A DNA stretch of 64,000 nt. Origin: Bacteroidales bacterium UBA5072. Lineage in GTDB: Bacteria; Bacteroidota; Bacteroidia; Bacteroidales; UBA10428. The stretch's first letter is position 1. Every line of letters begins with the position of its first letter. The notes under the pieces are model-generated. The model did not search any database. It was not told the DNA's origin and saw nothing but the letters and a program-made list of their open reading frames with translations. Shown here in pieces: positions 19,663 to 33,707 of this stretch. Location: the NCBI GenBank assembly GCA_002415855.1, contig DIAS01000068.1:6484-70483 (forward strand), read 5' to 3'. The position numbers and the translations under genes were made by a program.

Positions 19663-20406
19663 ATGGTACAGGCAATGTCGCGATCCGTGTATCAAAAGAT
19701 ACGAAAACCTGTAGTAATAACGACGGCAATATTGTTTCATTTGCTGTTAATCTTTCATTTGTTATTCTCCCCGGTGATAATTGTAATGGCATCCTACAAA
19801 GGAATTATAAATGCCAGTTTTGTCGTTTTTGCTTTAATTATCCTATTATCACTTTTCTTTGGCAGAGCGTATTGTTCATGGTTTTGCCCGGGATGTGGTG
19901 TACAGGAGATCATGTCATTTTTCATTAAAAAGAAATCCAAAAACACTAAAGCTTTATACATCAAGTATTTTCTTTTCACTATCTGGATAGGGGCAATAAC
20001 GGCAGGTTACACTTTAAATGGACTAAATAAGATAGATTTGGCTTATGGGATGTCAGATATTTCTTTTGCACGAAAGATAGTCCTTACACTCGGGGCAATC
20101 GTGATAATTGTTCCCTTAACAGCTATTTTCGGACAGTTTGCTTCCTGCAAATATATTTGTTGGCAGGCCCCTTTTATGATTATTGGAACGAAAATTCGGG
20201 ACTATTTTCATTTTCGCGGCTTGCGATTGCACGTTCATGCAGAAAACTGCAGGAACTGTAAGATCTGCAATTTTAAATGCCCTATGAATATCGATGTAAT
20301 GGGGCATGTGAAAAAGAACAGCATGAATAATTCAGAATGCATATTATGTGGCAACTGTATAGATAGCTGCAAACATAATGTGATCAGGTATGCCATTACA
20401 AAATAG
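19663..20406 (+). CDS. Membrane-bound 4Fe-4S ferredoxin-type protein (NapH/MauN-like architecture)
   Basis: Several TM helices plus Cys motifs CSWFCPGCG, CRNCKICNFKCP and CILCGNCIDSC. Confidence 0.7.
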   Translation: MVQAMSRSVYQKIRKPVVITTAILFHLLLIFHLLFSPVIIVMASYKGIINASFVVFALIILLSLFFGRAYCSWFCPGCGVQEIMSFFIKKKSKNTKALYIKYFLFTIWIGAITAGYTLNGLNKIDLAYGMSDISFARKIVLTLGAIVIIVPLTAIFGQFASCKYICWQAPFMIIGTKIRDYFHFRGLRLHVHAENCRNCKICNFKCPMNIDVMGHVKKNSMNNSECILCGNCIDSCKHNVIRYAITK

Positions 20407-20563: not shown

Positions 20564-20944
20564 TTAATTCGGATACCAATAGGAAACTGTATAACTTCCG
20601 CCTCCCTCGTAATAGGTTCCGCTTCCTTCATTGCTGCTGCCGGTGCTGGTGCTGGCCGGCGAGATATAAGATCCGACCGTAACCGTATCGCATGAACATA
20701 TCACACCGCCAAGGAAAGTAGAATCCGGTGAAGTGGTTATGGTATCACATGTACATACGCTTCCTGACCCGGGAAAATTTCTCGATGAGGCTACACAGTC
20801 GCATATGCACACTGCGCCTGCCGGTAAAGGCGTTTGGCAGGAAACCGTCAGAATTTCAGAACCCATCTGCCGGATCTGCCGTGCCTCAATGGCCTCAGTT
20901 ATGTCCGGATCAAACAGATGATGCACAGGCTTACCTTCGGGCAT
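20564..20944 (-). other. Tail-coding segment of paralog A (126 aa from MPEGKP to YWYPN-stop); putative modified region
   Basis: Counting from the Met of MPEG, Cys residues sit at tail positions 36, 46/48/50, 64/66 and 83/85. Paralogs B and C have the same positions. Confidence 0.6.
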
Positions 20945-22015
20945 GGACCATAATCTGATGGTATGATCGCTGCTGCCGGAAACAAGAAACCGCCCGTCGG
21001 GACTAAAAGTTACCGAGTTCACGGCGTCCGTGTGTCCTTCAAAAGTGGAAAGAGGATTCCCGTTTTGAACCGACCACAACAATATAGTCTTGTCTTCACT
21101 TCCCGAGGCTATCGTTCTGCCGTCGGGTGCGAAACAAACTGAATTCACAAAGTCCTTATGACCTTTAAGTGTATTTATCAGCATGCCATCAGCCACAGAC
21201 CATATTCTGACACATTTATCCTGACTTCCGGTGGCAAGCATGTCGCTGTCATGATTAAAACACAATGTCAATACCGATTTAGAATGACCTGTCAGGGTTC
21301 TGATAACCTGCCCATCAGGCACAGTCCATAATTTTACAGAATTGTCACCGCTGCAGGATGCCAGGCTCTTACCGTCTGTACTGAAAGCAAGCGAATATAC
21401 AAAACTTGAATGGCCTTCCAGTGTGGTTAGCAGGTTCCCTTCGGGAAATGACCATAATTTAATCTTCTTGTCATAACTTCCGGTTGCCAGAAGCTTACCG
21501 TCAGGTGAAAAGCAGACTGCACTCACCCATCCTCCATGACCATCAAGCTTCTTTAGCAGACTGCCGTCTTTTGCCAGCCAAATGCTCACCGATTTGTCGT
21601 TGCTTCCGCAGGCAATGATTTCACCCAGGGGATGGATACTTATTGACCGGACCGCATTTGCCTCCGTTTCTAATTTGTTCACCAGACCTCCTCCGGGAAT
21701 TGACCAGATTTTGATAACACCCTCCTTGCCGCCTGAATAAAGCAGTTTATCATTTCTCCCAAAACAAAGCGTGTTGATGACATCGGAATGAGCCTGAAAG
21801 GCTGAAGAATTCTTACCTGTGTCTTTTATGATCCCTCCCTGAGGTGTACTATTCTTTTCTGCACATCCCGTTATTGGCAAAAGCGACAGACCTGCCCCGA
21901 GCGTTCCCAGGCTACCCAGAAATCTTTTACGCGAAAGGGATAATCCTTTCCTGTCCTTTTTAAAGGCATATATCTCAGGCCCTTCATCCTGTTTTAAAGC
22001 TCGTTTTTTTATCAT
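20564..22015 (-). CDS. WD40 beta-propeller protein, paralog A: Tat-like signal with lipobox, about 7 WD repeats, C-terminal 8-Cys + Gly/Tyr tail ending YWYPN
   Basis: 483 aa. The N-terminus has SRKRFLGSLGTLGAGLSLLPITGC. WD repeats follow the pattern H.D.V.S..FSPDG..LASGS.D.TIKLWS. The tail is ...SCQTPLPAGAVCICDCVASSRNFPGSGSVCTCDTITTSPDSTFLGGVICSCDTVTVG...GTYYEGGGSYTVSYWYPN. Confidence 0.85.
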   Translation of the reverse strand: MIKKRALKQDEGPEIYAFKKDRKGLSLSRKRFLGSLGTLGAGLSLLPITGCAEKNSTPQGGIIKDTGKNSSAFQAHSDVINTLCFGRNDKLLYSGGKEGVIKIWSIPGGGLVNKLETEANAVRSISIHPLGEIIACGSNDKSVSIWLAKDGSLLKKLDGHGGWVSAVCFSPDGKLLATGSYDKKIKLWSFPEGNLLTTLEGHSSFVYSLAFSTDGKSLASCSGDNSVKLWTVPDGQVIRTLTGHSKSVLTLCFNHDSDMLATGSQDKCVRIWSVADGMLINTLKGHKDFVNSVCFAPDGRTIASGSEDKTILLWSVQNGNPLSTFEGHTDAVNSVTFSPDGRFLVSGSSDHTIRLWSMPEGKPVHHLFDPDITEAIEARQIRQMGSEILTVSCQTPLPAGAVCICDCVASSRNFPGSGSVCTCDTITTSPDSTFLGGVICSCDTVTVGSYISPASTSTGSSNEGSGTYYEGGGSYTVSYWYPN

Positions 22016-22038: not shown

Positions 22039-23508
22039 TTAACCAAAAAAATCTCTGAAATCACGCCGATGTGAATAACCGCTTACGTCTTGCCCCGACC
22101 CGATAACCGACAGTAGCACTTTGTATATTGCAGCCAACAGGTAGAAATCAGTAAGCAGAAAAATCCCTTCCATGGTCTTTACATATCTGCTTGAATACGT
22201 TTCGTTGCATACATAAAAGACCACCGAGAAAATAAAGAAATTAAAAAAAATGAGAATGAACTCACGGGGGACCAGGAACCCGGAAACACTCATCTGGTTG
22301 TAGTACAGGGCATAAAGGGAAAGCATCAGGATAACCAGATAAGAATACTGTAACTTATTGAGTGTTCCTGAAAAAAAACCAAAATACACGGCAAGGACGA
22401 TCAGTCCCAGAGCGACTGGTACAGCCAGGTATCTGTAAAGCTTGCTGGTATAAGTTCTTGATCTTTTGAACAGCCAAATTGCTAAAAGGATCATGAGTAG
22501 CGTCAGCAGAAAGGAAAAGGTGAGAAGCGGTGAAAAGCCGGCTTTTATTTTTGCAGGAATATTCAGCAAATACTCAGGGTTATGGCTATAGAAGCTGATC
22601 ACCCTGAGCATATCGAGATGCGTGCCGTGATCAGCATTATAAAAAGCGTTGATGTCATCCCGCCATTCCGGATGCCAGAGTCCATCAGAACAATATTCGT
22701 TGTTACCGTCTAAAAGTACCTCATTGCTTTGGGTTGATACAAAGGTGAAATGGTGTACCTGAGAAGACAGGTAACCCGACCATATCCCGGTTATCGCCAA
22801 GAAACCGATCAGGAATACCAAGGTGTTTAGCAATCTGCCCTTTCTTTTGAACAGCATGCAGTAAAGATCACAGAGGATGACAAGAGGAAAAAGAAGAAGG
22901 GTTGTGCCCTTGTTCAGTACGGAGATTCCCAGGATAGTGCCCAGCAATATGGAAGAGATCACGGATCCCCGGTAATGGAAATAGAGGCATATCGTTATGA
23001 TCGAGAGGAACAAAAACTGCCAGTTTTCAGGCATCAGATGCTCCGGGAACCTTCTGTTAAGTATGAAAAAGGAGATAAAACCCAGTAGGCCGATAAAATA
23101 TCCTTTCTCTCCCCAGAAAAGTTTTCCCGCAACTACCAGCAATATACCGGCACACAGTAATACGATCAGTTGCAAATACTTGATGATTAAGGGATTTACG
23201 CCAAATAACCTGTATGTGACGCATAAGAACACGGGGTAGAAAGGCGGCCTGTGAAATGCTTTGATTCCGGAAAAATGCTGCCAGAACCTTATTTTCTCCT
23301 CAGTGAGATCAACGATCTTATACCGGTCTATTTCCTCTATCAGGCCTGTTACAGGATACCCATGTCCGTCACAATAATTTACTGCAATGGACTGGTAGTC
23401 CCATTCGTCTCCGGTAAAGATCACGGAATTGGTAAAGTGACCCCGGCGTAAAGCAAAAAGCAATAAAATGGCACCAATAACGAGTAATATCAGGCTTTTC
23501 TTCTTCAA
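22039..23508 (-). CDS. Polytopic GT-C fold glycosyltransferase (PMT/ArnT, GT39/GT83-like)
   Basis: 489 aa with about 11-13 predicted TM segments. The first extracytoplasmic loop carries a DE motif (FTGDEWDYQSIAVNY), as in PMT_2/ArnT-type lipid-linked-sugar transferases. Confidence 0.6.
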   Translation of the reverse strand: MKKKSLILLVIGAILLLFALRRGHFTNSVIFTGDEWDYQSIAVNYCDGHGYPVTGLIEEIDRYKIVDLTEEKIRFWQHFSGIKAFHRPPFYPVFLCVTYRLFGVNPLIIKYLQLIVLLCAGILLVVAGKLFWGEKGYFIGLLGFISFFILNRRFPEHLMPENWQFLFLSIITICLYFHYRGSVISSILLGTILGISVLNKGTTLLLFPLVILCDLYCMLFKRKGRLLNTLVFLIGFLAITGIWSGYLSSQVHHFTFVSTQSNEVLLDGNNEYCSDGLWHPEWRDDINAFYNADHGTHLDMLRVISFYSHNPEYLLNIPAKIKAGFSPLLTFSFLLTLLMILLAIWLFKRSRTYTSKLYRYLAVPVALGLIVLAVYFGFFSGTLNKLQYSYLVILMLSLYALYYNQMSVSGFLVPREFILIFFNFFIFSVVFYVCNETYSSRYVKTMEGIFLLTDFYLLAAIYKVLLSVIGSGQDVSGYSHRRDFRDFFG

Positions 23509-23512
23509 TCTG

Positions 23513-25114
23513 CTATAATCCTGAATTTTCGATTTTCATCAATACGTTATTCTTATCAGCCAGCCACCAGAACCGTATCAGGTGATCAAGCCCGCATGTG
23601 ATAAAATAAAATGAATTTGGCGCAATACTTATAGAAGTAACTGAGGTCTGGTGGGCCTGAAACGATCTTAGTAACTTTCCGGAACCAAGATCCCAGATCT
23701 TGACCACCCCATCCAGATCACCGCTGATCAAATAATTTCCGTCCCTGCTTATTTCCAGATCCCGGACATAAGACTTATGGCCTTCGAAGGTTTTCGACAG
23801 CGTACCTGTTTCCGTATCATAGATTCTGATCACATTGTTTTTTGAACAGGCTGCTATGTATCTTCCGTTCGGAGTAATATCCAAATCCATTACGGGTGAA
23901 TTATTTCTGATGGTCCTGAGCAGGTTACCGGTTTTCAGGTCCCATATCCGGATAGTTTCGTCCCAGCCGCCTGAGACTATCTTTCCTGCTTTTTCAGAAG
24001 CAGCTATTGAAGTGATGGGCTTCCCGGAACCGGAAACGATATTGATCCTCGCACCTGTACTGATATTCCAGCCAACAACACTCCCATCCCAGGAGGAAGT
24101 AAAAAGCACACCATTGCTCAGCAGCAACATATCGGATATCATGGAGGATTGTCCTGCAACCGACTGCGGTTTCTTATCGGAGAACAGCGGGTGGCTGATG
24201 ACCAGGCTGTCGGTTACTCCCAGTACATTCCACTCCACATTCCCCGCAATGAATCCTCTATATACCGCAGGTTGTACAGGCTGTTTTATTTGACCTTCGC
24301 TGAACAGGCTGGTGAGTTTGAGCTCATAGTTCTCCGAATTGGAAATAACGGCATAGTCCGTTAAAAGAACAGCTTCGTTCTCCGGCAGGTTCTTGTCGAA
24401 TATTTTACCATCAGGAATTCCCCTGAGTAGTTCAGCTATTTTCTTTGTGCAAATCCCTGTACTATCCAGATTACCTGCCTTTCTGTAACAATCCATTGCC
24501 CAGCCGTACCATCCGTTTGCATAAAATTGTCTTCCGACAGCTTTATATCCTTCGGATTCCAGATCTGCCATACCAAAGTATTTCAAGGCCTGAACATAAT
24601 CAGCTGACGCGATCAGTAAACTGCCGATCCGTCGGGCACCCCGCTCCGCCTCATTTGCCTTTTTATAAAATGCAAAAGCGTTTTCCAGATCATTGCCCTT
24701 AAGCAATGTATCCGCAATTCTGAGGGCGGCAGTTTTTCCTTCTCCGGCTATGTTGTAATAAGTATAGGAGGCTTCATAATAACCCGACTTAAATAAATAT
24801 TCTGCCATCTTTTTACTGCCTTCTTTTTCCTTTCCTGCCTTCTGATAAGCATCCAAAGCCTTCTCATAGTTGATTTTATAGTAGTAGGGAGCCAGGGTGT
24901 TATCGTTGAATTTAATCTCATTAACATAGGCTTCTGCTACTGAGAAATAGCAGGCTTTTTGTTCATCACCCTTTGTTTTACTGCAAAACTGTTCCGCTTC
25001 AGCCAGTTTACTTTCTGAAATAAGCATTTCAAGCGAAACGCATGATGAGGCTATAAACGGGAGGCACGTTACCAAAACAGCGAACAGTGTCTGAATATAT
25101 GTTCTTTTTGTCAT
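23513..25114 (-). CDS. Lipoprotein with an N-terminal TPR/Sel1-like repeat half and a C-terminal WD40 half (no Cys tail)
   Basis: 533 aa with lipobox FIASSC. Repeated A..Y.KAG/A..FYKKAN helical-repeat motifs are followed by WD repeats (SGGWDETIRIWDL, SGDLDGVVKIWDL). Confidence 0.7.
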   Translation of the reverse strand: MTKRTYIQTLFAVLVTCLPFIASSCVSLEMLISESKLAEAEQFCSKTKGDEQKACYFSVAEAYVNEIKFNDNTLAPYYYKINYEKALDAYQKAGKEKEGSKKMAEYLFKSGYYEASYTYYNIAGEGKTAALRIADTLLKGNDLENAFAFYKKANEAERGARRIGSLLIASADYVQALKYFGMADLESEGYKAVGRQFYANGWYGWAMDCYRKAGNLDSTGICTKKIAELLRGIPDGKIFDKNLPENEAVLLTDYAVISNSENYELKLTSLFSEGQIKQPVQPAVYRGFIAGNVEWNVLGVTDSLVISHPLFSDKKPQSVAGQSSMISDMLLLSNGVLFTSSWDGSVVGWNISTGARINIVSGSGKPITSIAASEKAGKIVSGGWDETIRIWDLKTGNLLRTIRNNSPVMDLDITPNGRYIAACSKNNVIRIYDTETGTLSKTFEGHKSYVRDLEISRDGNYLISGDLDGVVKIWDLGSGKLLRSFQAHQTSVTSISIAPNSFYFITCGLDHLIRFWWLADKNNVLMKIENSGL

Positions 25115-25187: not shown

Positions 25188-25565
25188 TTAGTTGGGATAC
25201 CAATATGTCCGGTAATAGGTAGTCCCGCCGTAATAAGTACCTGGATTGTAATAGGTTGTCCCACCATGGTAACCCGAGTACGTGGAGCTGCTTCCGATCG
25301 TAATTGTATTGCAGATGCATATCATGGTGCCTGATAAGGCAGCACCAGCGGGAAGTGTAATTGTATTACATGTGCAAACCATTTCTGTACCCGGGTAGCT
25401 TCTTGAATCCGCAATACAATCACATATGCAGGTAGCACCGGGGGGTATGGGAGAACCACAGGGCAATGTCAAAACACCCGGGCCCATTTGCTTTACCTGC
25501 ATGGCATCTGTTTTTTCAGTAACAGAAGGATCAAAGATCACAAAGCATGGATCACCTTCCGGCAT
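25188..25565 (-). other. Tail-coding segment of paralog B (125 aa); putative modified region
   Basis: Same Cys spacing as A and C (tail positions 36, 46/48/50, 64/66, 83/85). One extra Cys sits at tail position 7. Confidence 0.6.
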
Positions 25566-26588
25566 TGTCCATAGACGGATTGTTTTATCAGCACCTCCTG
25601 CTACCAAGGTCTGTCCGTCGGGGGTGAAACAAACAACATTGACATCTTCATTTGTCTCTATTTTCAGAGTCAATAGATCCGACCCTTCGGGTACAGACCA
25701 GATTTTAACCGTATTGTCACTGCTGCCCGATGCGAGCCAATTGCCGCCCGGATTAAAACAAACCGAGTTGACAGTTTGGGTATGGCCTTCCAGTGTTTTA
25801 ATGAGCGTACCTTCAGGAACGGACCAAAGCATAATTGTTTTGTCCTCACCCGCAGAAGCCAATATTTTGCCATCACTCCTAAAACACAGATCTGTGGCTT
25901 TTTCACGGTGTCCTGCCAGCATCTTCAGTACTTTATCTTCGTGCAGGGACCAGAGTGTGATCTGATGATCCATTCCGGACCATGCAAGCAGTTTGCTGTC
26001 GGGACTGAAGCATACCACCTCAATCTTATCCTTCAGCGATAACGTTTTCAAGGGTTTCAGACCTGTGAGGGAGGTTAACCTGATGGTGTTGTTCAGGGGG
26101 AGCGTGGCAACCATTTTGCTGTCGGGGCTGATACGTACCTTATGTCCCATCACTCTGCCAAGGCTTTTTCCGGTCGGTAAATACCAGAACTCCGTCTGAT
26201 TAATATTGCGGTAACCGATCGCCAGAATTTTACCGTCGGGACTAAAACTCAGGTCATCCACCGAGCCGCAAGGGAATGTCTTCAGTAATTTTCCGTCAGG
26301 CAAAGACCAAAGTTTGGCAGTTCCGTCGGAACTTCCCGATGCAATTATCTCACCGTCAGCTCTGACTTTGAGTGCAGTTACTTCATTATTATGTGCCTTG
26401 AAGACCGACAGATCCAATCCCTTTACTTCAATCTTATCGGCAAGCGCCTCGACAGGCTTGAGTGAAAGTACGGCTCCGATGGTGCCAATTGCTCCAAGAA
26501 ATTCCTTTCTGGTGAAGATCAGCTTATCCCTGGTCTTTTTAATTCCGTAAATTTCAGCCTCTCCATTCTTTTTATTGGGTGTTTTCAT
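25188..26588 (-). CDS. WD40 beta-propeller protein, paralog B: Tat-like signal, C-terminal 8-Cys + Gly/Tyr tail ending YWYPN
   Basis: The listed ORF extends to 26651. Met22 at 26588 (MKTPNKKNGEAEIYGIKK...) aligns with the starts of paralogs A and C and avoids overlapping the tail of paralog C. The tail is ...PCGSPIPPGATCICDCIADSRSYPGTEMVCTCNTITLPAGAALSGTMICICNTITIG...YYGGTTYYRTYWYPN. Confidence 0.85.
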   Translation of the reverse strand: MKTPNKKNGEAEIYGIKKTRDKLIFTRKEFLGAIGTIGAVLSLKPVEALADKIEVKGLDLSVFKAHNNEVTALKVRADGEIIASGSSDGTAKLWSLPDGKLLKTFPCGSVDDLSFSPDGKILAIGYRNINQTEFWYLPTGKSLGRVMGHKVRISPDSKMVATLPLNNTIRLTSLTGLKPLKTLSLKDKIEVVCFSPDSKLLAWSGMDHQITLWSLHEDKVLKMLAGHREKATDLCFRSDGKILASAGEDKTIMLWSVPEGTLIKTLEGHTQTVNSVCFNPGGNWLASGSSDNTVKIWSVPEGSDLLTLKIETNEDVNVVCFTPDGQTLVAGGADKTIRLWTMPEGDPCFVIFDPSVTEKTDAMQVKQMGPGVLTLPCGSPIPPGATCICDCIADSRSYPGTEMVCTCNTITLPAGAALSGTMICICNTITIGSSSTYSGYHGGTTYYNPGTYYGGTTYYRTYWYPN

Positions 26589-26589
26589 A

Positions 26590-26616
26590 TCAGTTGGGTT
26601 AGGGTTCTCAGTTGGG
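26590..26616 (-). repeat. 9-nt direct repeat CCCAACTGA x2 (9-nt spacer) at the paralog C stop / paralog B start junction
   Basis: The minus strand reads TAC TGG TAT CCC AAC TGA GAA CCC TAA CCC AAC TGA T ATG. This gives three in-frame stops in 27 nt, and the second copy abuts the paralog B ATG. Confidence 0.8.
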
Positions 26617-26946
26617 ATACCAGTATGTAGTGTAATAGCCTCCGCCGCCATAATAAGTTGGAGGAGAATAGGTTCCTACTGTTATGGTATTGCATATGCA
26701 AATCATCCCGGCGGATAAAGGCGAACCGGCCGGTATGGTAATGGTATCACACGTACAAATGGTATGAGAACCAGGATAGCTCCGTGAAGAAGAAATGCAG
26801 TCGCAGATACAAGTAGCTCCGGCAGGCAGGGGCGTACCACAGGGCATGGTTAGTGTTTCAGGCCCCATTTGACGGACCCTTCGTGCATCTGTTTTTTCAG
26901 TATTTGCCGGATCGAACAAAATATAGGCTGGTTTGCCTTCAGGCAT
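26608..26946 (-). other. Tail-coding segment of paralog C (112 aa); putative modified region
   Basis: Same Cys spacing as A and B. It has the shortest Gly/Tyr segment (21 aa after the last CxC block). Confidence 0.6.
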
Positions 26947-27996
26947 GGTCAACAACCGGATTTTGTCATCATTGCTTCCGGTTGCAAGGGTCTGTCCGTC
27001 GGGACTGAAGCAAACCGCATTAATATCACCTGACTGGCCCATGAAGGTATTCAGAGTTTTCCTGTCATTCACCGACCAGAGTTTAAGCATACCCGAGTTA
27101 TTTTCGTAAGCGGTGGCAACCATTCTGCCATCGGGACTAAAAGTGAGCGCATTCACCTGTTTGCCTAATTCTTCCTTCGTTTGAATAAGTTCGAATTCAG
27201 GAATCCTCCAGAACTTCATGGCATGATCCGTACTTCCTGAAGCCAGTATTCTGCCATCGGGACTGAAACACAGGGAATTTATACTTCCTGTATGGCCCTC
27301 GAGGGTATTCAGCAACTGCCCATCAGGCAAAGACCACAGTTTAATGTTCTGATCACTGCCCGATGCCAGGATCTTGCCATAAGGGCTGAAACAAACGGCA
27401 TAGACCTTGCCGTCAGAATAGGACTGCAGTTGTGTTGTCAGATTTCCTTGCTGAACAGACCAAAGTCTCACGGTATTATCATCACTGCAGGAGGCCAGCG
27501 ATTTTCCGTCAGGGCTGAAACATAAGCTTCTTACCCCGTAGGTGTGCCCTTTCAGCGTTTTTTGAAGATTCCCGTCAGGAACCGACCAAAGCCTGATGGT
27601 TTTATCGTTGCTGGCTGAGGCCAGCGTTTTACCATCGGGACTGAAGCAAACGGTTGTGACCTCCTCAGTATGTTGTTTGATCTTTTTGATGATCTTCCCG
27701 TCCGGGATGGACCACAATTTGATGGTATTATCGCTGCTTCCGGAAGCGAGCATTTTGCCGTCGGGACTAAAACAGACGGACTTTACCGCATCCGAATGCG
27801 ACTTAAAATCCGACACACCCGTACCTGTATCTTCTATCTTTTCCGCATGTCCTTCAACGGACAATAGTGCCATTCCGGCACCCAATGTGCCAATAGCACC
27901 CAGGAATTCTTTACGCGAGAAGGAAAGCCCTTCATTCTCTTTTTTCAGGGCATAGATCTCAGGTTTTTCATCGGATTTCTTTTTGGGGGTTTTCAT
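26608..27996 (-). CDS. WD40 beta-propeller protein, paralog C: Tat-like signal, C-terminal 8-Cys + Gly/Tyr tail ending YWYPN
   Basis: The listed ORF extends to 28035. Met14 at 27996 (MKTPKKKSDEKPEIYALKK...) aligns with paralogs A and B. The tail is ...PCGTPLPAGATCICDCISSSRSYPGSHTICTCDTITIPAGSPLSAGMICICNTITVGTYSPPTYYGGGGYYTTYWYPN. Confidence 0.85.
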   Translation of the reverse strand: MKTPKKKSDEKPEIYALKKENEGLSFSRKEFLGAIGTLGAGMALLSVEGHAEKIEDTGTGVSDFKSHSDAVKSVCFSPDGKMLASGSSDNTIKLWSIPDGKIIKKIKQHTEEVTTVCFSPDGKTLASASNDKTIRLWSVPDGNLQKTLKGHTYGVRSLCFSPDGKSLASCSDDNTVRLWSVQQGNLTTQLQSYSDGKVYAVCFSPYGKILASGSDQNIKLWSLPDGQLLNTLEGHTGSINSLCFSPDGRILASGSTDHAMKFWRIPEFELIQTKEELGKQVNALTFSPDGRMVATAYENNSGMLKLWSVNDRKTLNTFMGQSGDINAVCFSPDGQTLATGSNDDKIRLLTMPEGKPAYILFDPANTEKTDARRVRQMGPETLTMPCGTPLPAGATCICDCISSSRSYPGSHTICTCDTITIPAGSPLSAGMICICNTITVGTYSPPTYYGGGGYYTTYWYPN

Positions 27997-29332
27997 GGAT
28001 TTTATAATTGATTGATTTTCCGTCGCATACACCACCGCTATCTATCATGCATCGTATCAGCAGTTCCCTTGTTATATCACGGTTTACATCACAGCGGCTG
28101 GAAAACGTTGTATTGCCGAAACTCCCCGGCAATATTGTTTTCGCCGGACAATCCCCCGCACAATGCCAGTAACAATAACATTCCCGGCACAATAGTTTTC
28201 TTTCTGCAATCCGATTTTGAAAATCTTCCCGTTTCTTAAAATCAATCCTCATTTCTCCGGTTGCTGAAAGTTGTCCGAAGTGAAAGGCTTCTGCCAGCGG
28301 ATGACTTCCGCCTGATATCTCATAGCACGATGACAATATCCCATCGGGAGTAACCACCAGGGCATTGTCATGGGCGGTGCAAAAACAATCCGTATTCACC
28401 CAGGGCCTGGCACCGGAATAATATAACCAGCGTTTGTTTTCCCTGGCTATGTCATATGCCTTTAAAAAACTCTCGACAAAAAGCTTGTTGTTTTGAATAG
28501 TCTGGTGATTGGCTACAGCCCTTCCGGCACCGAATGCAGGTTCCACCTGGAAAGTCTGGCATTTTGTTTCATTGCAAAGGAAAGCAATGCTCCGTTCCAG
28601 GTGATTCACACTGTTGTTGGTAACTGTGAGCCTTATACCATAACGGATACCGGATTGATCAAGCTTCCGGATATTATTCATGATGACATCAAAGGTGCTG
28701 CCTCCAATTGTCAATGGCCGTTGCTGATCCTGAACCTCTTTTATCCCGTCAAAGGAAAGGGTAAGTGTGTCGATATTGGATATAATCCAGGCTGCTTTGT
28801 TATTGTTCCAGTAACCATTCGATGTAAGCTCTATACTGCAGGGCAGATCCTTGTTCCTTGCATACCGGGTAAAATCCTGCAGCTTTTGAAAAGGCAAGGC
28901 AGGTTCACCTCCGCCGTGAAAAGCCACAGTAAATTGACCTGTACCAGCCTTTACTGCATGATCATATACAAAATCAATTGCTTTTTTACCTGTATCAAGG
29001 GACAATTCCGATGGTACAGCGTCCCCGCCATTGGCAAAGCAATAGGTGCACCTGAAGTTGCATGCCGATGTCATGCACAGAACAGCTACCGTGGGCTTAA
29101 ATTCAGTGGTGGTATTTTTTGAACTCTCAAAATGACGGGTATTAAAGAATCCATGTGCCTGCAAAAACGACAGAACTTTTTTATTCTTCTCAGGGTTAAC
29201 TATTTTCTTGCCCATGACATCGCCTATGAGATCCACGGTAGCCTGGTTACCTACAAATGCAAATTTGTTGAGCGGCTGATAAATGATATATTTATCCAGG
29301 TAAGGTATGGTATAGGTATCCGGATGAAGCAT
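27968..29332 (-). CDS. Radical SAM enzyme with a full SPASM domain (peptide/protein-modifying maturase type, anSME/QhpD-like architecture)
   Basis: 454 aa. The CX3CX2C motif is CNFRCTYC, after an about 85-aa N-terminal extension (YIIYQPLNKFAFVGNQATVDLI, RRE-like). SPASM motifs seen directly: C-x12-G-x4-C (CTAHDNALVVTPDGILSSC) and C-x2-C-x5-C-x3-C (CRECYCYWHCAGDC). The stop overlaps the paralog C start by 29 nt. Confidence 0.85.
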   Translation of the reverse strand: MLHPDTYTIPYLDKYIIYQPLNKFAFVGNQATVDLIGDVMGKKIVNPEKNKKVLSFLQAHGFFNTRHFESSKNTTTEFKPTVAVLCMTSACNFRCTYCFANGGDAVPSELSLDTGKKAIDFVYDHAVKAGTGQFTVAFHGGGEPALPFQKLQDFTRYARNKDLPCSIELTSNGYWNNNKAAWIISNIDTLTLSFDGIKEVQDQQRPLTIGGSTFDVIMNNIRKLDQSGIRYGIRLTVTNNSVNHLERSIAFLCNETKCQTFQVEPAFGAGRAVANHQTIQNNKLFVESFLKAYDIARENKRWLYYSGARPWVNTDCFCTAHDNALVVTPDGILSSCYEISGGSHPLAEAFHFGQLSATGEMRIDFKKREDFQNRIAERKLLCRECYCYWHCAGDCPAKTILPGSFGNTTFSSRCDVNRDITRELLIRCMIDSGGVCDGKSINYKIHENPQKEIR

Positions 29333-31022
29333 CCTCTAAATTTAACAAGTTAATTTGATTATTATCATAGCGTTTCATCTTTTCTTTTAGTCTCTCCCAG
29401 AATTCTGATATAAAGGGGAGATTACAGTCATTCTTATGGTTGCAGGAGCTGCAATTAAAACAATCGGGTAAATTCATCCTGTGAAATACGTCCCGCGGTC
29501 TGAAACTTTCATTTCCTCCACAGAGGGATCTCAGGAATGGCAAGGATTGCATCTCGCTGAGCGAAAAGTGGTCCGAAATTCTGCCCTGCAGAATACTGAA
29601 ACTGATCAGGCCAAGGAGTTGCTCCGAATTTAACCGGCCAACCGGGTGCTTTGGATAATACCTGAAATAATCACCGGTGTGAAATTCCTTATCGGGCGAG
29701 ACATCAACGTACTTCTGCAACGAACGGAGCATGTTTGTTCGTTCTTTGCCGGTGCTCCTTTTCAGGTTTGCCATTACCGGCAGGAACTGATCAAACTCGA
29801 GAAATGCGGTTGAAAATGAGTTGTCAGGGAAACTGGTAATTTCACTCATACCTGGAATGTAGACAGAATAGGCAGGTTGCCCCAGAAATGAATTATCCCT
29901 TACAAAGAGTTTCCTGCTGTCTCTTTTCAAAATAGCGAAGAGAAATTGAAGATCCTGCTGATCAGAAACAGATTCGGGATGCTCAAATCCTGCAAATTCA
30001 TAAGAAGGAGCATCTGCCAAAAGATCAGGAGGCCATTGACCGGCATAGGCTTGAATTGTCCGACCCAGACTCTTTCTCCAAAAATCAGCATCGAGGTTAT
30101 AGGGCAGGTTTTCAATGAGTTCTTTCGCAGGCTGAAAAAGTATGGCCCCACCCTGGAAAATTTCTGTAAAGCAACGTTCCAGTGCCGTTATAGGGCTGGG
30201 ATCCGCGCCAAGATGAAAGGCGTGGCCGTTCTCATCATTGCTCAGCAATACACCTATAACCGGGTATCCCTTGCCCATTGAACAATCCTTAATCCTTATG
30301 CGATAGCCAAACTGATGTATTAACAGGTTGATCTTTTCAGAGATTTCTGTTCCTTCGAAACAGGACAAAGGGATATCAGGGGGACAAAACGGATCTTTAT
30401 ACAGGGACTTCATGACAAACCGTTCAAAGATCTCTGAGATACCCTGTATCAGGGCTTCTTCAGGCGTATTGCCACTGCACATACCATTACTGCCGACGAT
30501 GACCTGCATTTCCCTGAAAGGGAAATATGCCGTCTTTCTTTCAAATATTTCATAAAACGGGATGCCTGCATGCCAATGGCTGTTTTTATATTGATGCCGA
30601 GATATACCGGTGAGGAAGAAAAAATTATCTGCAAAAACGGAATTTGAATGTTTTCCTGTTAAAAAGTATTTCTCATCGGGGAAATGAAAGAACTGATGGA
30701 TTGTCTGTTTCTCTCGCTCACCTTCGGAGGGATATAGAAGCACCGAATAAAAAGCGAGATTCTGAACTCTTTCGATCATTTCGCCCCAGGCACTGGCTGA
30801 GGCCCATTCACTTGAGCCACCTTTGCCATAGGTTGTGAAAACCTCCTGCTGATTTTCCGGGTTAATTAAACTTAATTTGCAGGCCTTGAAATAAGCATTG
30901 CCTTCAACTGGTGTTTCGATCATTTCCGCACCAAGATCACTGAATATGGCCCTGATGATCCTGACAGTTTCATGCGGAGGTTTTGCTTTATAGGGCTTGA
31001 CCCTTTTCAACGGCTTTGCCAT
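29292..31022 (-). CDS. Stand-alone YcaO-domain protein (ATP-dependent backbone-amide-activating family; E. coli YcaO-like length and architecture)
   Basis: 576 aa. The N-proximal motif TYGKGGSSEWASASAWGEMIERV corresponds to the YcaO signature (E. coli TNGKGATKKAALASALGEYFERL). There is no fused E1-like/Ocin-ThiF N-domain. The C-terminus carries a Cys cluster, CFNCSSCNHKNDC. It overlaps both flanking radical SAM genes (35 nt and 41 nt). Confidence 0.8.
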   Translation of the reverse strand: MAKPLKRVKPYKAKPPHETVRIIRAIFSDLGAEMIETPVEGNAYFKACKLSLINPENQQEVFTTYGKGGSSEWASASAWGEMIERVQNLAFYSVLLYPSEGEREKQTIHQFFHFPDEKYFLTGKHSNSVFADNFFFLTGISRHQYKNSHWHAGIPFYEIFERKTAYFPFREMQVIVGSNGMCSGNTPEEALIQGISEIFERFVMKSLYKDPFCPPDIPLSCFEGTEISEKINLLIHQFGYRIRIKDCSMGKGYPVIGVLLSNDENGHAFHLGADPSPITALERCFTEIFQGGAILFQPAKELIENLPYNLDADFWRKSLGRTIQAYAGQWPPDLLADAPSYEFAGFEHPESVSDQQDLQFLFAILKRDSRKLFVRDNSFLGQPAYSVYIPGMSEITSFPDNSFSTAFLEFDQFLPVMANLKRSTGKERTNMLRSLQKYVDVSPDKEFHTGDYFRYYPKHPVGRLNSEQLLGLISFSILQGRISDHFSLSEMQSLPFLRSLCGGNESFRPRDVFHRMNLPDCFNCSSCNHKNDCNLPFISEFWERLKEKMKRYDNNQINLLNLEDASSGYLYHTLPG

Positions 31023-31974
31023 GACCAGCTATGGGATTATAAAACCTTTGAATTCTGAATGACAGACAACCACCGTTGCACCGGTTATTGAACAAAGGGC
31101 AGGAGGAACAGTACGGGTATATTCCTATGGTCTTATATGATGTCAATGCCTCCTCGAATTTTCCAATCAGGTCTCCAGCCTGCAATTCATCGTGGATTTT
31201 AATTTTTGTCAGATTATTCAACGGGTAGCATGAAATAAAAGAGCCATCGGACAGCAAATCAATTATGGGATGGCAGCAGGTTCCGGCTTTCACCAATTCA
31301 TCCGCTAAAAGTTCATAATGCTCCTGTGGAAACATACAGGGAACAAAGCCACAGTCAAATCCCAGCGATATTCCCGATTTTTTTGCATCGAGCTTGAATT
31401 TTGCGATCTTTTGCCCAATTTTGGGATATTCCTTCGGATGCAGGTAAATATTGACCATGCTCAGAACCGAATGTGATATCCCCATCCGGATCTCCTTTTT
31501 GAGCCCGAATTTATTCACATAATCCAGCAGGTAATGCAATTCCTGCCTGGCGTTGTATATATTCACCCCGGCAATGATAACCGGTCCAAGCTTTTGCATC
31601 ACCTCCAGCTGACGCCTGGTGCCTGCCTCATTCTTCTCCTCCGGCTGTATGGTGTTCAGCAAAATAGAAAGCTTTTCTCGGGGTATGGAATACAGAAATT
31701 CCAGAACTTTATCCGAGATAAGTCCATTGGTAAAAAGCATTACGCTGAGACCACGGTTCAGTGCTTTCCCAACAAAACTTATAAATGCCGGATGAAGCGT
31801 AGGTTCTCCACCCAGCAGCCGGGCCTGCCGTATACCCGATCTCTCAAGGTAATCCAGCGCTTTTTCATAAAGCCCCTCCTCCATATGGGCTTTGCCATAC
31901 TCATTTCGCGTATCGTTGGCAAAACAATACACACAGCTTTTGTTGCAGACATTGGTAATTGACAGGTTGGCCAT
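30988..31974 (-). CDS. Radical SAM enzyme with a SPASM/twitch-like C-terminal Cys domain
   Basis: 328 aa. The CX3CX2C motif is at the extreme N-terminus (CNKSCVYC). The C-terminal region has C-x9-G-x4-C (CHPIIDLLSDGSFISC) and C-x2-C-x6-C-x3-C (CSSCPLFNNRCNGGC). Confidence 0.8.
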   Translation of the reverse strand: MANLSITNVCNKSCVYCFANDTRNEYGKAHMEEGLYEKALDYLERSGIRQARLLGGEPTLHPAFISFVGKALNRGLSVMLFTNGLISDKVLEFLYSIPREKLSILLNTIQPEEKNEAGTRRQLEVMQKLGPVIIAGVNIYNARQELHYLLDYVNKFGLKKEIRMGISHSVLSMVNIYLHPKEYPKIGQKIAKFKLDAKKSGISLGFDCGFVPCMFPQEHYELLADELVKAGTCCHPIIDLLSDGSFISCYPLNNLTKIKIHDELQAGDLIGKFEEALTSYKTIGIYPYCSSCPLFNNRCNGGCLSFRIQRFYNPIAGHGKAVEKGQAL

Positions 31975-31985
31975 GCTGTAGGGAA

Positions 31986-32420
31986 CTATTTGTCTGACAA
32001 TCCTATTTCATCCATGTTAAATGATTCTCTGGGATGGCAGATCCGCCATGATGCCAATCTGAAAAACAAGGAGGTGACGGTACTGTAAATATTGTGGTAA
32101 GGCAGATCCGCCTCATTCCGGATCAACAGTGCGGTTTGTTGAAGCGATTTGCCTTGCTGAAAATATTCGAATGCCTTGAGCTCAGTTTCGTTTAGCTCCA
32201 CACACAGGTATTTGTTAAACCTGCTTTCCGGTATGATAAAGAGGTTATTGTCCAAATGCCAGTTCTCCTCGGGAAAGAATACCGGTTCTATTTGCTCAAT
32301 CATCTTTTCAGGCAGTTCATGCAACCTGTTCAGCGGTATATGCTGAACACCGCGGATCTCATCGCGCAGAACGCCCAACTGACCAATAAACTGCCTGAAA
32401 AAGTCCCTTCTTGAATGCAT
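31986..32420 (-). CDS. Small cytoplasmic protein, possible PqqD-like peptide-binding (RRE) or chaperone component
   Basis: 144 aa and the first gene of the packed block. The segment LNETELKAFEYFQQGKSLQQTALLIRNEADLPYHNIYSTVTSLFFRLASWRI follows the PqqD/RRE winged-helix pattern. The N-terminus SRRDFFRQF looks like a twin-arginine motif but has no hydrophobic h-region. Confidence 0.4.
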   Translation of the reverse strand: MHSRRDFFRQFIGQLGVLRDEIRGVQHIPLNRLHELPEKMIEQIEPVFFPEENWHLDNNLFIIPESRFNKYLCVELNETELKAFEYFQQGKSLQQTALLIRNEADLPYHNIYSTVTSLFFRLASWRICHPRESFNMDEIGLSDK

Positions 32421-32459: not shown

Positions 32460-33707
32460 CTATTTTACCTTATCCATTATCTCCTTCACCGCATCCTTAT
32501 GCACCATAAAATCCATCATCTTCAACTTCACATAATCCTCCGAAAAGAAATAATAACCGAACTCCTTAGCATTCTCATCGTTATTGCGTGAACCGGAACC
32601 TGAATCCTTGATCAGGTACCAGTCTTTACCATCCTTTTCAAGGTAACCCACCAGGTGTATGCCATGGTCATCGGTGGTGGTCCTGTTGGAGAATCTGAAC
32701 TGACGGGCATCGTCATTGATATATGTTGCGGGTATATCAAAATCGGGTACTATTGCACATTGGGTGTAACGGTCGAATCCAGGTTCAGAAACATCGCCAC
32801 CGATACTGAGCGTATACCCTTTTCTGATTGCACTTTTCAATGCAGACATGTAAACATCAAGTGGAACATTGATGTAGGCTGTGCTGTGCCACCAGTTGTC
32901 AGGCACTTTATACTCAACCAGCTGATAAAAAGGTTCCTGCCTGTATGAAAGGATGTCAACATAATCATCCGGGTTGATCTTCACAACATCGTTAAGGTAT
33001 TGCAGGGGTGTTAACTTTTTCCCGTTCACGATAATTTCCGCCGGAGGCTCTCCCAGGTAATGGTTCATAATGGACTTGATGGTGGCAATGGCGGCCTCTT
33101 CGTTCCAGCCTGAGTTGGCCTTCAAGGATTCGAGGTAGCTTTTCATTTCTTCTATCATGAGCTCATGATTGTGGTATTTTCGGCCATTCAGCAACCCGGT
33201 ATAAGCTTCGGCGGGTACCACACCGTATTTTTTCCAGATGCGGGTGGTGGCATTGGCCTCAGATCCTTCATCAAACACTGAGTTCCCTCGCTCCTGTACA
33301 TACCGCCTTGCTTTTTCAACATATTCCCAATAAACACTATAAATCTCGGACAATTTCACCTGTATTTTATTGATCCTGTAAGCCTCCGATTCCAGAAAGG
33401 ATGTTGTGGAAAAACACCAGCATGTGCCCGTATTCCCTTGCGAAATCGGTGCATTGTGCCAGTACTGGTTTGTATACAGATCAACCTTGTTTGGGAAAGA
33501 AGCATCACTGAGATCTGCCACGAAGCTTCTGGCAGGTTTCGGTGGTTCAAGCTTTTCATTCATTTCCCGGTCGTCCCTGAGAATGGAATTCTGGTAAAAA
33601 CCCGGTCTGGACTCCCTGAATGTGGCTTTGTCCTTGTTCTGGCAGTATACATGACCTGAGACAGAGCAGGCAGCAAAAGTTGCTATAAATAATATCCTCG
33701 TTTTCAT
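32460..33707 (-). CDS. pepC: C1-family cysteine peptidase (aminopeptidase C / bleomycin hydrolase-like) with a signal peptide
   Basis: 415 aa with the catalytic-Cys motif QGNTGTCWCFSTTSFLESE and later His/Asn regions (DDHGIHLVGY...). The N-terminal signal is MKTRILFIATFAACSVSG. Confidence 0.8.
   Translation of the reverse strand: MKTRILFIATFAACSVSGHVYCQNKDKATFRESRPGFYQNSILRDDREMNEKLEPPKPARSFVADLSDASFPNKVDLYTNQYWHNAPISQGNTGTCWCFSTTSFLESEAYRINKIQVKLSEIYSVYWEYVEKARRYVQERGNSVFDEGSEANATTRIWKKYGVVPAEAYTGLLNGRKYHNHELMIEEMKSYLESLKANSGWNEEAAIATIKSIMNHYLGEPPAEIIVNGKKLTPLQYLNDVVKINPDDYVDILSYRQEPFYQLVEYKVPDNWWHSTAYINVPLDVYMSALKSAIRKGYTLSIGGDVSEPGFDRYTQCAIVPDFDIPATYINDDARQFRFSNRTTTDDHGIHLVGYLEKDGKDWYLIKDSGSGSRNNDENAKEFGYYFFSEDYVKLKMMDFMVHKDAVKEIMDKVK

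What the first reader, a model, noticed from the sequence alone, without database searches (positions are those of the whole stretch)
26608..26946. Identically spaced 8-Cys module plus a Gly/Tyr-rich terminus ending in invariant YWYPN-COOH in all three propeller paralogs
The three tails were aligned from the shared MPEG(K/D)P motif. Their coordinates are A 20564..20944, B 25188..25565 and C 26608..26946.

Cysteines fall at exactly the same tail positions in all three: 36, 46/48/50, 64/66 and 83/85. This gives the pattern C-x9-CxCxC-x13-CxC-x16-CxC, while many intervening residues differ.

Conserved blocks:
- FDPxxTE...[IV][RK]QMG...LTxxC
- P[LI]PxGAxCICDC[IV]xxSRx[YF]PG
- [VI]C[TSI]C[DN]T[IV]T, present twice (an internal duplication)

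A 21-35-aa low-complexity Gly/Tyr/Thr/Ser stretch follows (for example YYGGGGYYTT and YYNPGTYYGGTTYYRT). Its length varies, but it always ends Y-W-Y-P-N-stop.

Cys flanked by Asp/Asn/Thr is the kind of donor/acceptor pairing used in sactionine/ranthionine-type and QhpC-type Cys-Asp thioethers. CxC/CxCxC strings are also typical azoline/thioamide YcaO substrates. An aromatic motif anchored at the free C-terminus recalls the C-terminus-anchored rSAM targets (FxSxx-COOH cyclophanes, mycofactocin GVY, PQQ Glu/Tyr). Two distinct rSAM enzymes and two distinct target-like regions would fit together.
Basis: seen in the sequence. Interest (0 to 1): 0.85.

Follow-up and report, generated by a model that had tools for sequence, protein, structure and literature searches.

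The report
Radical-SAM-targeted Cys-rich tail on exported propeller proteins
Three neighbouring WD40 propeller proteins end in a conserved 8-cysteine tail finishing in YWYPN; related tails occur in many bacterial phyla, almost always beside a peptide-crosslinking radical SAM enzyme, so they look like an undescribed class of full-size secreted proteins modified the way small natural-product peptides are.

Summary
Three minus-strand paralogs carry tails with eight cysteines at identical positions, then a Gly/Tyr-rich stretch ending YWYPN-stop.

This is a family feature. In 31 diverse relatives, all eight Cys, P41, G43 and Y-W-x-P are invariant, and every CxC is followed by Asp/Asn (His in 2 sequences at one site).

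About 80 loci from many phyla carry the core motif PCGxPxPxGAxCxC[DN]C.
- A homolog of the window's CteB-like radical SAM/SPASM enzyme (≥100 bits) lies within the fetched flanks in 70 loci: within 300 bp in 59, always on the same strand.
- A second, small radical SAM enzyme and a PqqD-like leader-binding protein occur only with tails ending YW[YHR]P[NSTC] (29/43 and 30/43 loci, against 0/36).
- YcaO occurs only in a small subclade.

Carriers begin with a conserved PE[IV]Y leader fused to a twin-arginine-type signal, often with a lipobox. The window's paralogs have Arg-Lys instead.

Best reading: exported (lipo)proteins whose C-terminal tail is crosslinked in the cytoplasm by radical SAM enzymes. 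The chemistry is untested.

No Pfam or NCBIfam model and no paper was found. I rate it a new variant of a known kind.

The parts
26608..27996 (-). Carrier paralog C (462 aa): leader plus signal, 7-blade WD40 propeller, Cys-rich tail ending YWYPN
   Evidence: Translation; WD40 Pfam hits; start at MKTPKKK matches the public gene call of 462 aa
26608..26946 (-). Tail of C (the finding): LFDP..RQMG linker, three PxGxxCxC[DN]x[IV] units holding 7 of the 8 invariant Cys (the eighth, C36, sits in the preceding PCG), Gly/Tyr filler, YWYPN-COOH
   Evidence: AlphaFold2 gives no confident fold (pLDDT 44)
27844..27996 (-). N-terminal leader plus signal of C: KPEIYALKK..FSRKEFLG, hydrophobic stretch, then VEGHA (AxA-type cleavage site)
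   Evidence: The PE[IV]Y motif lies 14-18 aa upstream of RR/RK and is conserved across carriers
25188..26588 (-). Carrier paralog B (466 aa); tail 25188-25565; leader plus signal 26439-26588
   Evidence: P0003 is this protein starting from MKTPNKK
20564..22015 (-). Carrier paralog A (483 aa); tail 20564-20944; leader plus signal 21866-22015, with lipobox LLPITG|C
27968..29332 (-). Radical SAM/SPASM maturase (454 aa), CteB/PapB-like: CNFRCTYC and the SPASM motif CRECYCYWHCAGDC. It is the family-wide partner of the Cys module
   Evidence: (CteB 5wgg, E=1e-25). Homolog in 72/80 loci; at >=100 bits in 70 loci, within 300 bp in 59 and on the same strand in all 70
29292..31022 (-). Standalone YcaO (576 aa), E. 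coli-YcaO-like. It overlaps both flanking maturase genes and is a subclade-specific component
   Evidence: Orthologs sit inside the maturase block in L081, L086 and L087 only
30988..31974 (-). Small radical SAM enzyme (328 aa): CNKSCVYC at residue 10, C-terminal CSSCPLFNNRCNGGC. It is specific to tails ending YWxPx
   Evidence: Found in 29/43 YW-type loci against 0/36 others, Fisher p=2.4e-11
31986..32420 (-). 144-aa RRE (PqqD-like leader-binding) protein with an N-terminal Tat-like RRxFF motif
   Evidence: Profile against PDB hits PqqD 3g2b at E=1.2e-3. Pfam PqqD hits 7/15 members. AF2 pLDDT 73; Foldseek top hits are lasso B1 and TbiB1 bound to leader peptides, then PqqD. Found in 30/43 YW-type loci against 0/36
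22039..23508 (-). Polytopic membrane protein (489 aa), ArnT/PMT_2-like glycosyltransferase. It is a conserved neighbour in the window's subclade
   Evidence: IMG name. Homologs in L083-L085. A same-sized (489-aa) gene with no Pfam hit in L098 and a PMT_2 gene in L100 sit in the equivalent position, but their homology was not tested
23513..25114 (-). TPR-like plus WD40 lipoprotein-like protein (533 aa) without the Cys tail, lying between the paralogs
   Evidence: Its N-terminal part has homologs in L005, L007 and L017
32460..33707 (-). Papain-family (C1) peptidase, same strand and tightly spaced. A possible processing protease, but not conserved elsewhere
   Evidence: 0/79 loci

Best explanation
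The tail is the C-terminal 'core' of a ribosomally made, post-translationally modified protein.

Each carrier is synthesised with an N-terminal conserved PE[IV]Y hairpin-like leader. The leader is fused to a twin-arginine-type signal peptide, which reads R-K in the window's lineage and often carries a lipobox Cys.

Proposed steps:
1. In the cytoplasm the leader is held by an RRE. This is either the discrete PqqD-like 144-aa protein or the N-terminal domain of the SPASM enzyme.
2. The CteB/PapB-like radical SAM/SPASM enzyme crosslinks the Cys thiols of the three PxGxxCxC[DN]x[IV] units to side-chain carbons of nearby Asp/Asn/Thr, forming ranthionine-type thioethers.
3. The small radical SAM enzyme, together with the RRE protein, modifies the invariant Y-W-x-P-N-COOH end.
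4. In the window's subclade, YcaO adds an ATP-dependent backbone modification.
5. The folded, crosslinked protein is exported through a pathway that tolerates folded cargo (Tat). The signal peptidase removes leader and signal together.
6. The result is a periplasmic or lipid-anchored propeller carrying a rigid modified tail.

Shown here: the anatomy, its conservation, the gene linkage and the RRE fold.
Inferred: every chemical step, the order of steps, the export route and the final function.
For: - Eight Cys, P41, G43 and Y-W-x-P are invariant in 31 diverse tails. D/N follows every CxC.
- A SPASM homolog is present in 72/80 loci. At >=100 bits it is present in 70, within 300 bp of a carrier in 59 and on the same strand in all 70.
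- The closest solved structure is the thioether-forming SCIFF maturase CteB (E=1e-25). The best NCBIfam hits are the SCIFF and PapB maturases.
- The small radical SAM enzyme and the RRE protein are restricted to YW-ending carriers.
- p144 has an RRE fold; its top structural hits are RREs bound to leader peptides.
- Short relatives (123-167 aa) keep the leader and the tail but lack WD40. Leader plus core is therefore the conserved unit.
- The conserved leader sits at a fixed distance from RR and is followed by a hydrophobic region, in many cases with a lipobox. The NCBI Tat-signal model hits relatives, and NCBI names one member a Tat-signal protein.
- The tail has no confident autonomous fold (pLDDT 44).
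- Beta-thioethers to Asn or Asp made by NxxcB and PapB, and gamma-thioethers made by CteB, are precedents (PMC9389541).
Against: - No modification has been observed. The evidence is entirely comparative.
- The SPASM enzyme scores far below the curated cut-offs of every named maturase family (107 vs 425 bits for SCIFF, 105 vs 340 for PapB). Its chemistry could therefore differ.
- The window's three paralogs have R-K rather than R-R and do not hit the Tat-signal model.
- A substrate of 460-480 aa, with leader and core about 400 residues apart, is unusual for RRE-dependent enzymes.
- CxC-rich sequences with conserved D/N are also what a metal site would look like.
- The co-occurrence statistics treat loci as independent although they are phylogenetically related.
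Confidence: 0.6

Rival explanations
1. The tail is an unmodified metal- or iron-sulfur-binding (or disulfide-knotted) domain. It is loaded in the cytoplasm and exported folded. The neighbouring radical SAM enzymes act on something else or only help cofactor assembly.
For: There are eight invariant Cys in CxC/CxCxC strings with conserved D/N next to them. Twin-arginine-type signals are typical of cofactor-bearing proteins. AF2 fails to fold the apo sequence, as would be expected for a metal-dependent fold.
Against: - The tail is tightly linked in operons to a CteB-like peptide maturase in 70 loci across phyla.
- A dedicated RRE protein is present, which is a hallmark of leader-guided peptide modification.
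- The conserved N-terminal leader is not needed for metal binding.
- The number of CxC repeats varies widely (1-9 after the core), which does not fit fixed cluster stoichiometry.
- The tail matches no known Fe-S or metallothionein model.
Confidence: 0.12
2. This is a classical RiPP pathway. The tail is cut off and released as a small crosslinked peptide, and the WD40 propeller is only an oversized leader or carrier that is discarded.
For: The core sits at the extreme C-terminus, as in RiPP precursors. Short WD40-less precursors exist. Several precursor paralogs per locus is a RiPP habit (7 carriers in L018). A C1 peptidase lies in the window's operon.
Against: - No protease or peptide exporter is conserved across loci; the C1 peptidase is in 0/79 loci.
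- The signal peptide and lipobox direct the whole protein out of the cytoplasm.
- The linker between propeller and core is itself conserved (LFDP..RQMG).
- WD40 or other folded domains are retained in the great majority of carriers.
Confidence: 0.15
3. YWYPN-COOH with the Cys-rich stretch is a C-terminal sorting or anchoring signal. It would be recognised by a processing or attachment machinery, like sortase, exosortase or T9SS signals, rather than a modification target.
For: The motif is invariant and anchored at the free C-terminus. The carriers are exported surface or periplasmic proteins, and the host has T9SS cargo nearby.
Against: There is no transmembrane or basic segment after the motif. 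No sortase-like gene is conserved in the loci. The motif co-varies with a radical SAM enzyme plus an RRE protein. No hit to any CTERM or T9SS sorting model.
Confidence: 0.05

Closest known systems
SCIFF / ranthipeptide systems (CteA-CteB, PapA-PapB, NxxcA-NxxcB)
   Same: - A radical SAM/SPASM maturase whose closest solved relative is CteB.
- A Cys-rich C-terminal core with conserved Asp/Asn/Thr acceptors next to the Cys.
- RRE-type leader recognition.
- Several precursor paralogs per locus.
   Different: - Substrates are 420-690-aa signal-bearing propeller proteins; the shortest relatives are about 120-170 aa, not about 45-aa peptides.
- The maturase is far below the family cut-offs.
- The leader is merged with a Tat-like signal.
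- There is an extra invariant YWxPN end with its own enzyme.
- Up to five radical SAM domains occur per locus.
QhpC/QhpD of quinohemoprotein amine dehydrogenase
   Same: - Modification at the protein level: a SPASM radical SAM enzyme makes Cys-to-Asp/Glu thioethers in a Cys-rich polypeptide.
- That polypeptide then works in the periplasm and also holds a Trp-derived cofactor (my knowledge of the family).
- QhpD is among the hits of the window's enzyme (65 bits).
   Different: The window's enzyme is not a QhpD ortholog (cut-off 453 bits). No dehydrogenase subunits lie nearby. Export appears to use a signal peptide, not a dedicated ABC exporter. The tail is fused to a propeller.
PqqA/PqqD/PqqE and MftA/MftB/MftC (C-terminus-anchored aromatic targets)
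   Same: A small radical SAM enzyme with a C-terminal auxiliary-cluster motif is paired with a discrete PqqD-like RRE protein, and it co-varies with an aromatic motif fixed at the free C-terminus.
   Different: The small enzyme is not a member of the PqqE or MftC families (33 bits against a cut-off of 265 for MftC). The motif is Y-W-x-P-N rather than E..Y or G-V-Y. The substrate is a large exported protein.
Tat signal peptides and their proofreading chaperones (TorD, DmsD, NapD); signal-peptide-bearing RiPP precursors such as bufferins
   Same: A twin-arginine motif plus hydrophobic region is present in most carriers. A small cytoplasmic protein probably binds the N-terminal region before export. 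Precursors that carry an export signal are known from bufferins (my knowledge).
   Different: The n-region carries a conserved extra motif. The binder has an RRE fold, not a TorD or NapD fold. The window's lineage has R-K. Nothing about export was tested.

Membership tests
Ranthipeptide/SCIFF-type RiPP system | Radical SAM/SPASM maturase with CxxxCxxC and a SPASM Cys motif | tested here: met
   Pfam Radical_SAM; CNFRCTYC and CRECYCYWHCAGDC read in the sequence; CteB 5wgg at E=1e-25
Ranthipeptide/SCIFF-type RiPP system | Maturase reaches the curated family score (SCIFF TIGR03974 or PapB NF047865) | tested here: not met
   106.9 bits against a cut-off of 425; 104.8 against 340
Ranthipeptide/SCIFF-type RiPP system | Short precursor peptide (tens of residues) with a Cys-rich C-terminal core | tested here: not met
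   The core is C-terminal and Cys-rich, but the precursors are 462-483 aa in the window and 123-167 aa at the shortest
Ranthipeptide/SCIFF-type RiPP system | Non-alpha thioether crosslinks in the product | not testable with these tools
   Needs mass spectrometry or NMR of the co-expressed product
RRE-dependent RiPP pathways | A PqqD-like RiPP recognition element encoded in the locus | tested here: met
   The p144 profile hits PqqD. The AF2 model matches lasso B1, TbiB1 and PqqD (TM 0.61-0.74 normalised to the target)
Twin-arginine (Tat) signal peptide | S/T-R-R-x-F-L-K motif followed by a hydrophobic region and a cleavage site | tested here: inconclusive
   Most relatives have [ST]RRxF[LI] plus a hydrophobic region plus a lipobox or AxA site. 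TIGR01409 passes its cut-off in 2 of 7 relatives tested. The window's three paralogs have R-K and give no hit
YcaO-dependent azoline/thioamide RiPPs (TOMM-type) | YcaO with an E1-like/Ocin-ThiF or TfuA partner, conserved together with the precursor family | tested here: not met
   A YcaO domain is present, but no partner domain was found among the neighbours scanned. YcaO is absent from 79/79 genome loci and from L098-L103. It is present only in the window, L081, L086 and L087
QHNDH gamma-subunit system (QhpC/QhpD) | QhpD-family maturase | tested here: not met
   TIGR03906 scores 65 bits against a cut-off of 453
PqqE / MftC / FxsB-type C-terminus-anchored radical SAM systems | Small radical SAM enzyme belongs to one of these curated families | tested here: not met
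   The best hits of the 328-aa enzyme are generic: W-cofactor maturase at 58 bits, MftC at 33 bits against 265. PqqE in the PDB matches at E=0.002, N-terminal part only
PqqE / MftC / FxsB-type C-terminus-anchored radical SAM systems | Conserved aromatic motif at a fixed distance from the free C-terminus that co-occurs with the enzyme | tested here: met
   Y108, W109 and P111 are invariant and 2-5 residues from the end. The enzyme is in 29/43 YW loci against 0/36 others

The most novel reading that the evidence does not exclude
The N-terminal extension of a Tat signal peptide doubles as a RiPP leader. The RRE protein, which itself starts with a Tat-like RRxFF pseudo-leader, acts as a proofreading chaperone: it holds the twin-arginine region in the cytoplasm until up to five radical SAM enzymes have finished. 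The exported product would be a beta-propeller carrying a covalently built, peptide-derived cofactor or metal site. This would be made from the crosslinked Cys ladder and the invariant Tyr-Trp end, comparable to cysteine tryptophylquinone in QHNDH.
Probability: 0.12. Interest if true: 0.92.

Novelty: new variant of a known kind. Interest (0 to 1): 0.78.

Why it matters
If true, RRE-guided radical SAM 'RiPP' chemistry would extend from short peptides to full-size secreted proteins in at least a dozen phyla. These include Bacteroidota, Desulfobacterota, Chloroflexota, Acidobacteriota, Nitrospirota, Planctomycetota and Pseudomonadota.

It would also show a leader peptide built into an export signal. 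That links maturation to export control.

Standard mining pipelines discard precursor genes longer than 600 bp (PMC10288494). This explains how a family with hundreds of sequence clusters could go unnoticed.

The modular pairing gives directly testable enzyme-substrate assignments for several uncharacterised radical SAM clades. The pairs are: core Cys module with the SPASM enzyme; YWxPN end with the small radical SAM enzyme plus RRE; and, in some lineages, YcaO and a ChuW-like enzyme.

Tried and rejected
- Plus-strand translation of the given coordinates gives only stop-ridden frames. The genes are on the minus strand.
- Pfam and NCBIfam scans of the tail, of short carriers and of all accessory enzymes found no model reaching its cut-off.
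- Word-indexed protein searches with the tail returned only 2 and 20 hits. The exhaustive HMM search (309 clusters) and the genome pattern scan (79 loci) were what revealed the family.
- AlphaFold2 of the tail with a 19-sequence alignment gave pLDDT 44, so no fold search was attempted on it.
It was repeated with the three window tails.
- I tested whether the ChuW/HemN-like radical SAM enzyme tracks the number of extra CxC repeats, which would explain why the window lacks both. There is no significant relation (Mann-Whitney p=0.29).
- NapH/MauN-like ferredoxin, C1 peptidase, exonuclease and ArnT-like protein as family-wide partners: 0/79 genome loci. The ArnT-like protein is conserved only in the window's subclade.
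- The promoter/terminator scan of the operon was no better than shuffles.
- Literature searches for the motifs and for radical SAM + WD40/Tat/propeller combinations found nothing relevant.
- Single-linkage clustering of all ORFs merged WD40 and radical SAM genes and was polluted by shadow ORFs in high-GC loci. It was replaced by greedy gene selection.

Full report
**Observation.** The three coordinate ranges lie on the minus strand; plus-strand frames are full of stops. On the minus strand they are the 3' ends of three paralogous genes: A 20564-22015, B 25188-26588 and C 26608-27996. The later start codons of B and C agree with public gene calls.

Each protein has a basic N-terminus with a PEIY motif, an [ST]RK[ER]FLG motif followed by a hydrophobic stretch, seven WD40 repeats and then the tail. 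Aligned from MPEG(K/D)P, the tails have Cys at positions 36, 46, 48, 50, 64, 66, 83 and 85 in all three. A Gly/Tyr/Ser/Thr-rich stretch of about 20-34 residues follows, and all three end YWYPN-stop. The description is accurate.

**More than paralog similarity.** An exhaustive profile search of 1.84 billion representative proteins found 309 clusters at E<=0.001. A pattern scan of one genome per species found 79 loci in MAGs labelled Desulfobacterales, Bacteroidales/Rikenellaceae, Competibacteraceae, Myxococcales, Nitrospira, Acidobacteriota, Chloroflexota, Planctomycetota, Verrucomicrobiota, Actinomycetes and Alphaproteobacteria.

In an alignment of 31 diverse tails of the window's type (mean column identity 43%), the invariant columns are the eight Cys, P41, G43 and Y108-W109-x-P111. 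The residue after each CxC is Asp or Asn in 31/31, 31/31 and 29/31 sequences, followed by Cys/Thr and then Ile/Val. The module is therefore three copies of P-x-G-x-x-C-x-C-[DN]-[CT]-[IV]. The 9/13/16 spacing is the modal one.

The Gly/Tyr filler is specific to the window's lineage. Most relatives have CxCNT[IV] or CSCVGxx repeats in that place.

**Family anatomy.** All carriers share the core [TS]xPCGxPxPxGAxCxC[DN]C[VI]. They fall into two groups.
- One group ends [HST]-Y-W-[YHR]-P-[NSTC]. It has either the long three-unit module, as in the window, or a short core plus CSCVG repeats.
- The other group ends CTCVP[IV]x.

Both groups start with a conserved leader. PE[IV][YV] sits 14-18 residues before an RR motif and a hydrophobic region. 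The second group has an extra PRFELTRVYxDG strand. Many members have a lipobox Cys after the hydrophobic region; others have an AxA site.

The NCBI Tat-signal model passes its cut-off in some relatives, and NCBI names one member a Tat-signal protein. The window's subclade has R-K instead of R-R and gives no hit, so export by Tat is inferred, not shown.

The middle of the protein is usually a WD40 propeller. It can instead be an SH3-like or Pro/Thr-rich segment, or nothing at all: P0001, P0007, P0029 and the L042 carrier are 132-167 aa, with leader, signal and tail only. Leader plus tail is the conserved unit, and the propeller is cargo.

**Gene linkage.**
- tblastn with the window's neighbours shows a homolog of the 454-aa radical SAM/SPASM enzyme in 72 of 80 loci. 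At >=100 bits it is present in 70 loci, within 300 bp of a carrier gene in 59 and on the same strand in all 70.
- Several of the loci without it come from MAGs that have the enzyme at another carrier locus, judging by the contig names. L022 and L068 share a MAG with L067; L024 and L063 share one with L041.
- The 328-aa radical SAM enzyme is found in 29 of 43 loci with YW-type ends and in none of 36 others (Fisher p=2.4e-11).
- The 144-aa protein family is found in 30 of 43 against 0 of 36.
- These counts ignore phylogenetic relatedness, but they span several phyla.
- YcaO is in none of the 79 genome loci. It is embedded in the maturase block in three metagenome relatives, L081, L086 and L087. 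It is absent from other close relatives, L098-L103.
- Typical YW-type loci carry further radical SAM genes that the window lacks: a second and third SPASM paralog, a ChuW/HemN-like enzyme and a PFL-activase-like enzyme. These are sometimes fused into 900-1600-aa proteins.

**The enzymes.**
- The SPASM enzyme has CNFRCTYC and a CRECYCYWHCAGDC motif. Its closest solved relative is CteB, the SCIFF thioether synthase (E=1e-25 over nearly the full length). Its best NCBIfam hits are SCIFF, PapB, CcpM and CefB, all far below their cut-offs.
- The small enzyme has its radical SAM motif at residue 10 and a C-terminal CxxCx6CxxxC motif. Only its N-terminal half resembles known enzymes.
- The 144-aa protein matches PqqD by profile (E=1.2e-3; Pfam PqqD in 7 of 15 members). 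Its AlphaFold2 model (pLDDT 73; above 85 in the core) matches RREs best: lasso-peptide B1 and TbiB1 bound to their leader peptides, then PqqD (TM 0.61-0.74 normalised to the target).
- Its disordered N-terminus carries a conserved RRxFF motif that resembles the carriers' RRxFL.
- YcaO is of the standalone E. coli type. No E1-like or TfuA partner was seen.

**Mechanism proposed.** The leader is bound by an RRE in the cytoplasm. The CteB-like enzyme makes thioethers from the Cys ladder to neighbouring Asp/Asn/Thr side chains. The precedents are NxxcB (Asn), PapB (Asp) and CteB (Thr) (PMC9389541). The small enzyme with its RRE modifies the YWxPN-COOH end, and YcaO adds a lineage-specific backbone change. 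The crosslinked, folded protein then leaves through Tat, and signal cleavage removes the leader.

The ArnT/PMT-like membrane protein is conserved in the window's subclade. It could glycosylate the Tyr/Thr/Ser-rich filler outside the cytoplasm; this is speculation. All chemical steps are inferred.

AlphaFold2 gives no confident fold for the tail (pLDDT 44). That fits a segment needing modification or metal, but it does not discriminate between the two.

**Rivals.**
- An unmodified metal/Fe-S domain fits the Cys pattern and the Tat-like signal. It does not explain the leader, the RRE or the near-universal adjacent peptide maturase.
- A released small RiPP fits the C-terminal core and the short precursors. 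No protease or exporter is conserved, and the whole protein carries an export signal.
- A sorting signal fits the C-terminal anchoring. It does not fit the enzyme partners.

**Novelty.** No Pfam or NCBIfam model covers the tail, the leader, the RRE protein or (at cut-off) any enzyme. Database names are 'hypothetical' or 'WD40 repeat protein'. Four literature searches found nothing. RiPP mining pipelines discard precursor genes above 600 bp (PMC10288494).

I class it as a new variant of a known kind. The kind is RRE-guided radical SAM maturation of a Cys-rich C-terminal core. Here it is applied to large exported proteins, with the leader built into the signal peptide.

Noticed in passing
window 31986-32420 (-): The RRE protein begins MHSRRDFFRQF. 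This is a twin-arginine-like motif with no hydrophobic region. It is conserved across the family (RRxF[FLY]) and predicted disordered. It mimics the carriers' RRxFL and could be a pseudo-leader.
   Followed up: partly
window 22039-23508 (-); L083 3877-5352; L084 1561-3036; L085 924-2189: An ArnT/PMT_2-like polytopic membrane glycosyltransferase sits among the carrier genes and is conserved in the window's subclade only. It may glycosylate the Tyr/Thr/Ser-rich filler after export.
   Followed up: partly
L098 10438-10695; L102 530-784; L086 12232-12489; L100 17866-18144: A conserved 84-92-aa ORF with no Pfam hit lies next to the small radical SAM gene in relatives: directly upstream in L098, L102 and L086, adjacent on the minus strand in L100. 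It is missing from the window, where only 11 nt separate the RRE gene and the small radical SAM gene.
   Followed up: no
L018 8714-19579: An Anaerolineales MAG carries seven tandem carrier paralogs (WD40 plus short core plus CSCVG repeats plus SHYWYPN) next to three SPASM genes and an RRE gene.
   Followed up: no
L014, L015, L031, L033, L042, L044, L055-L062 and others: A second large carrier group ends CTCVP[IV]x and has the leader PRFELTRVYxDG..PEI..RRGFLG. It is accompanied only by the SPASM maturase, with no RRE protein and no small radical SAM enzyme. Some members (L051, L056, L070, L077, L079) have a further 150-400-aa domain after the Cys core.
   Followed up: partly
L002 5934-10682; L005 13484-16846; L037 9388-12156: Giant fusion proteins join the small radical SAM enzyme, its C-terminal extension, a SPASM enzyme and a ChuW/HemN-like radical SAM domain in one 920-1580-aa polypeptide. 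This argues that these enzymes work together.
   Followed up: partly
window 23513-25114 (-): A 533-aa protein with a lipoprotein-like start (LPFIASSC), a TPR-like helical region and four or more WD40 repeats, but no Cys tail, lies between carriers A and B. Its N-terminal part has homologs next to carriers in L005, L007 and L017.
   Followed up: partly
window 32460-33707 (-) and 33738-34478 (-): A papain-family (C1, bleomycin-hydrolase-like) peptidase and a PolB-exonuclease-like protein continue the same-strand gene array upstream of the RRE gene. Neither is found in other loci.
   Followed up: partly
window 11576-15640 (-), 17685-19649 (+), 19663-20406 (+): Two T9SS C-terminal-sorting-domain proteins point to a Bacteroidota-type host. 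One is a 1354-aa beta-helix/NosD-like protein. A NapH/MauN-like membrane ferredoxin flanks the locus. None is linked to the family elsewhere.
   Followed up: partly
L092-L097: The identical SPASM protein and gene order occur on contigs from several independent metagenomes, including JGI samples whose record names begin 'WSSed'. The same organism therefore recurs in several samples.
   Followed up: no
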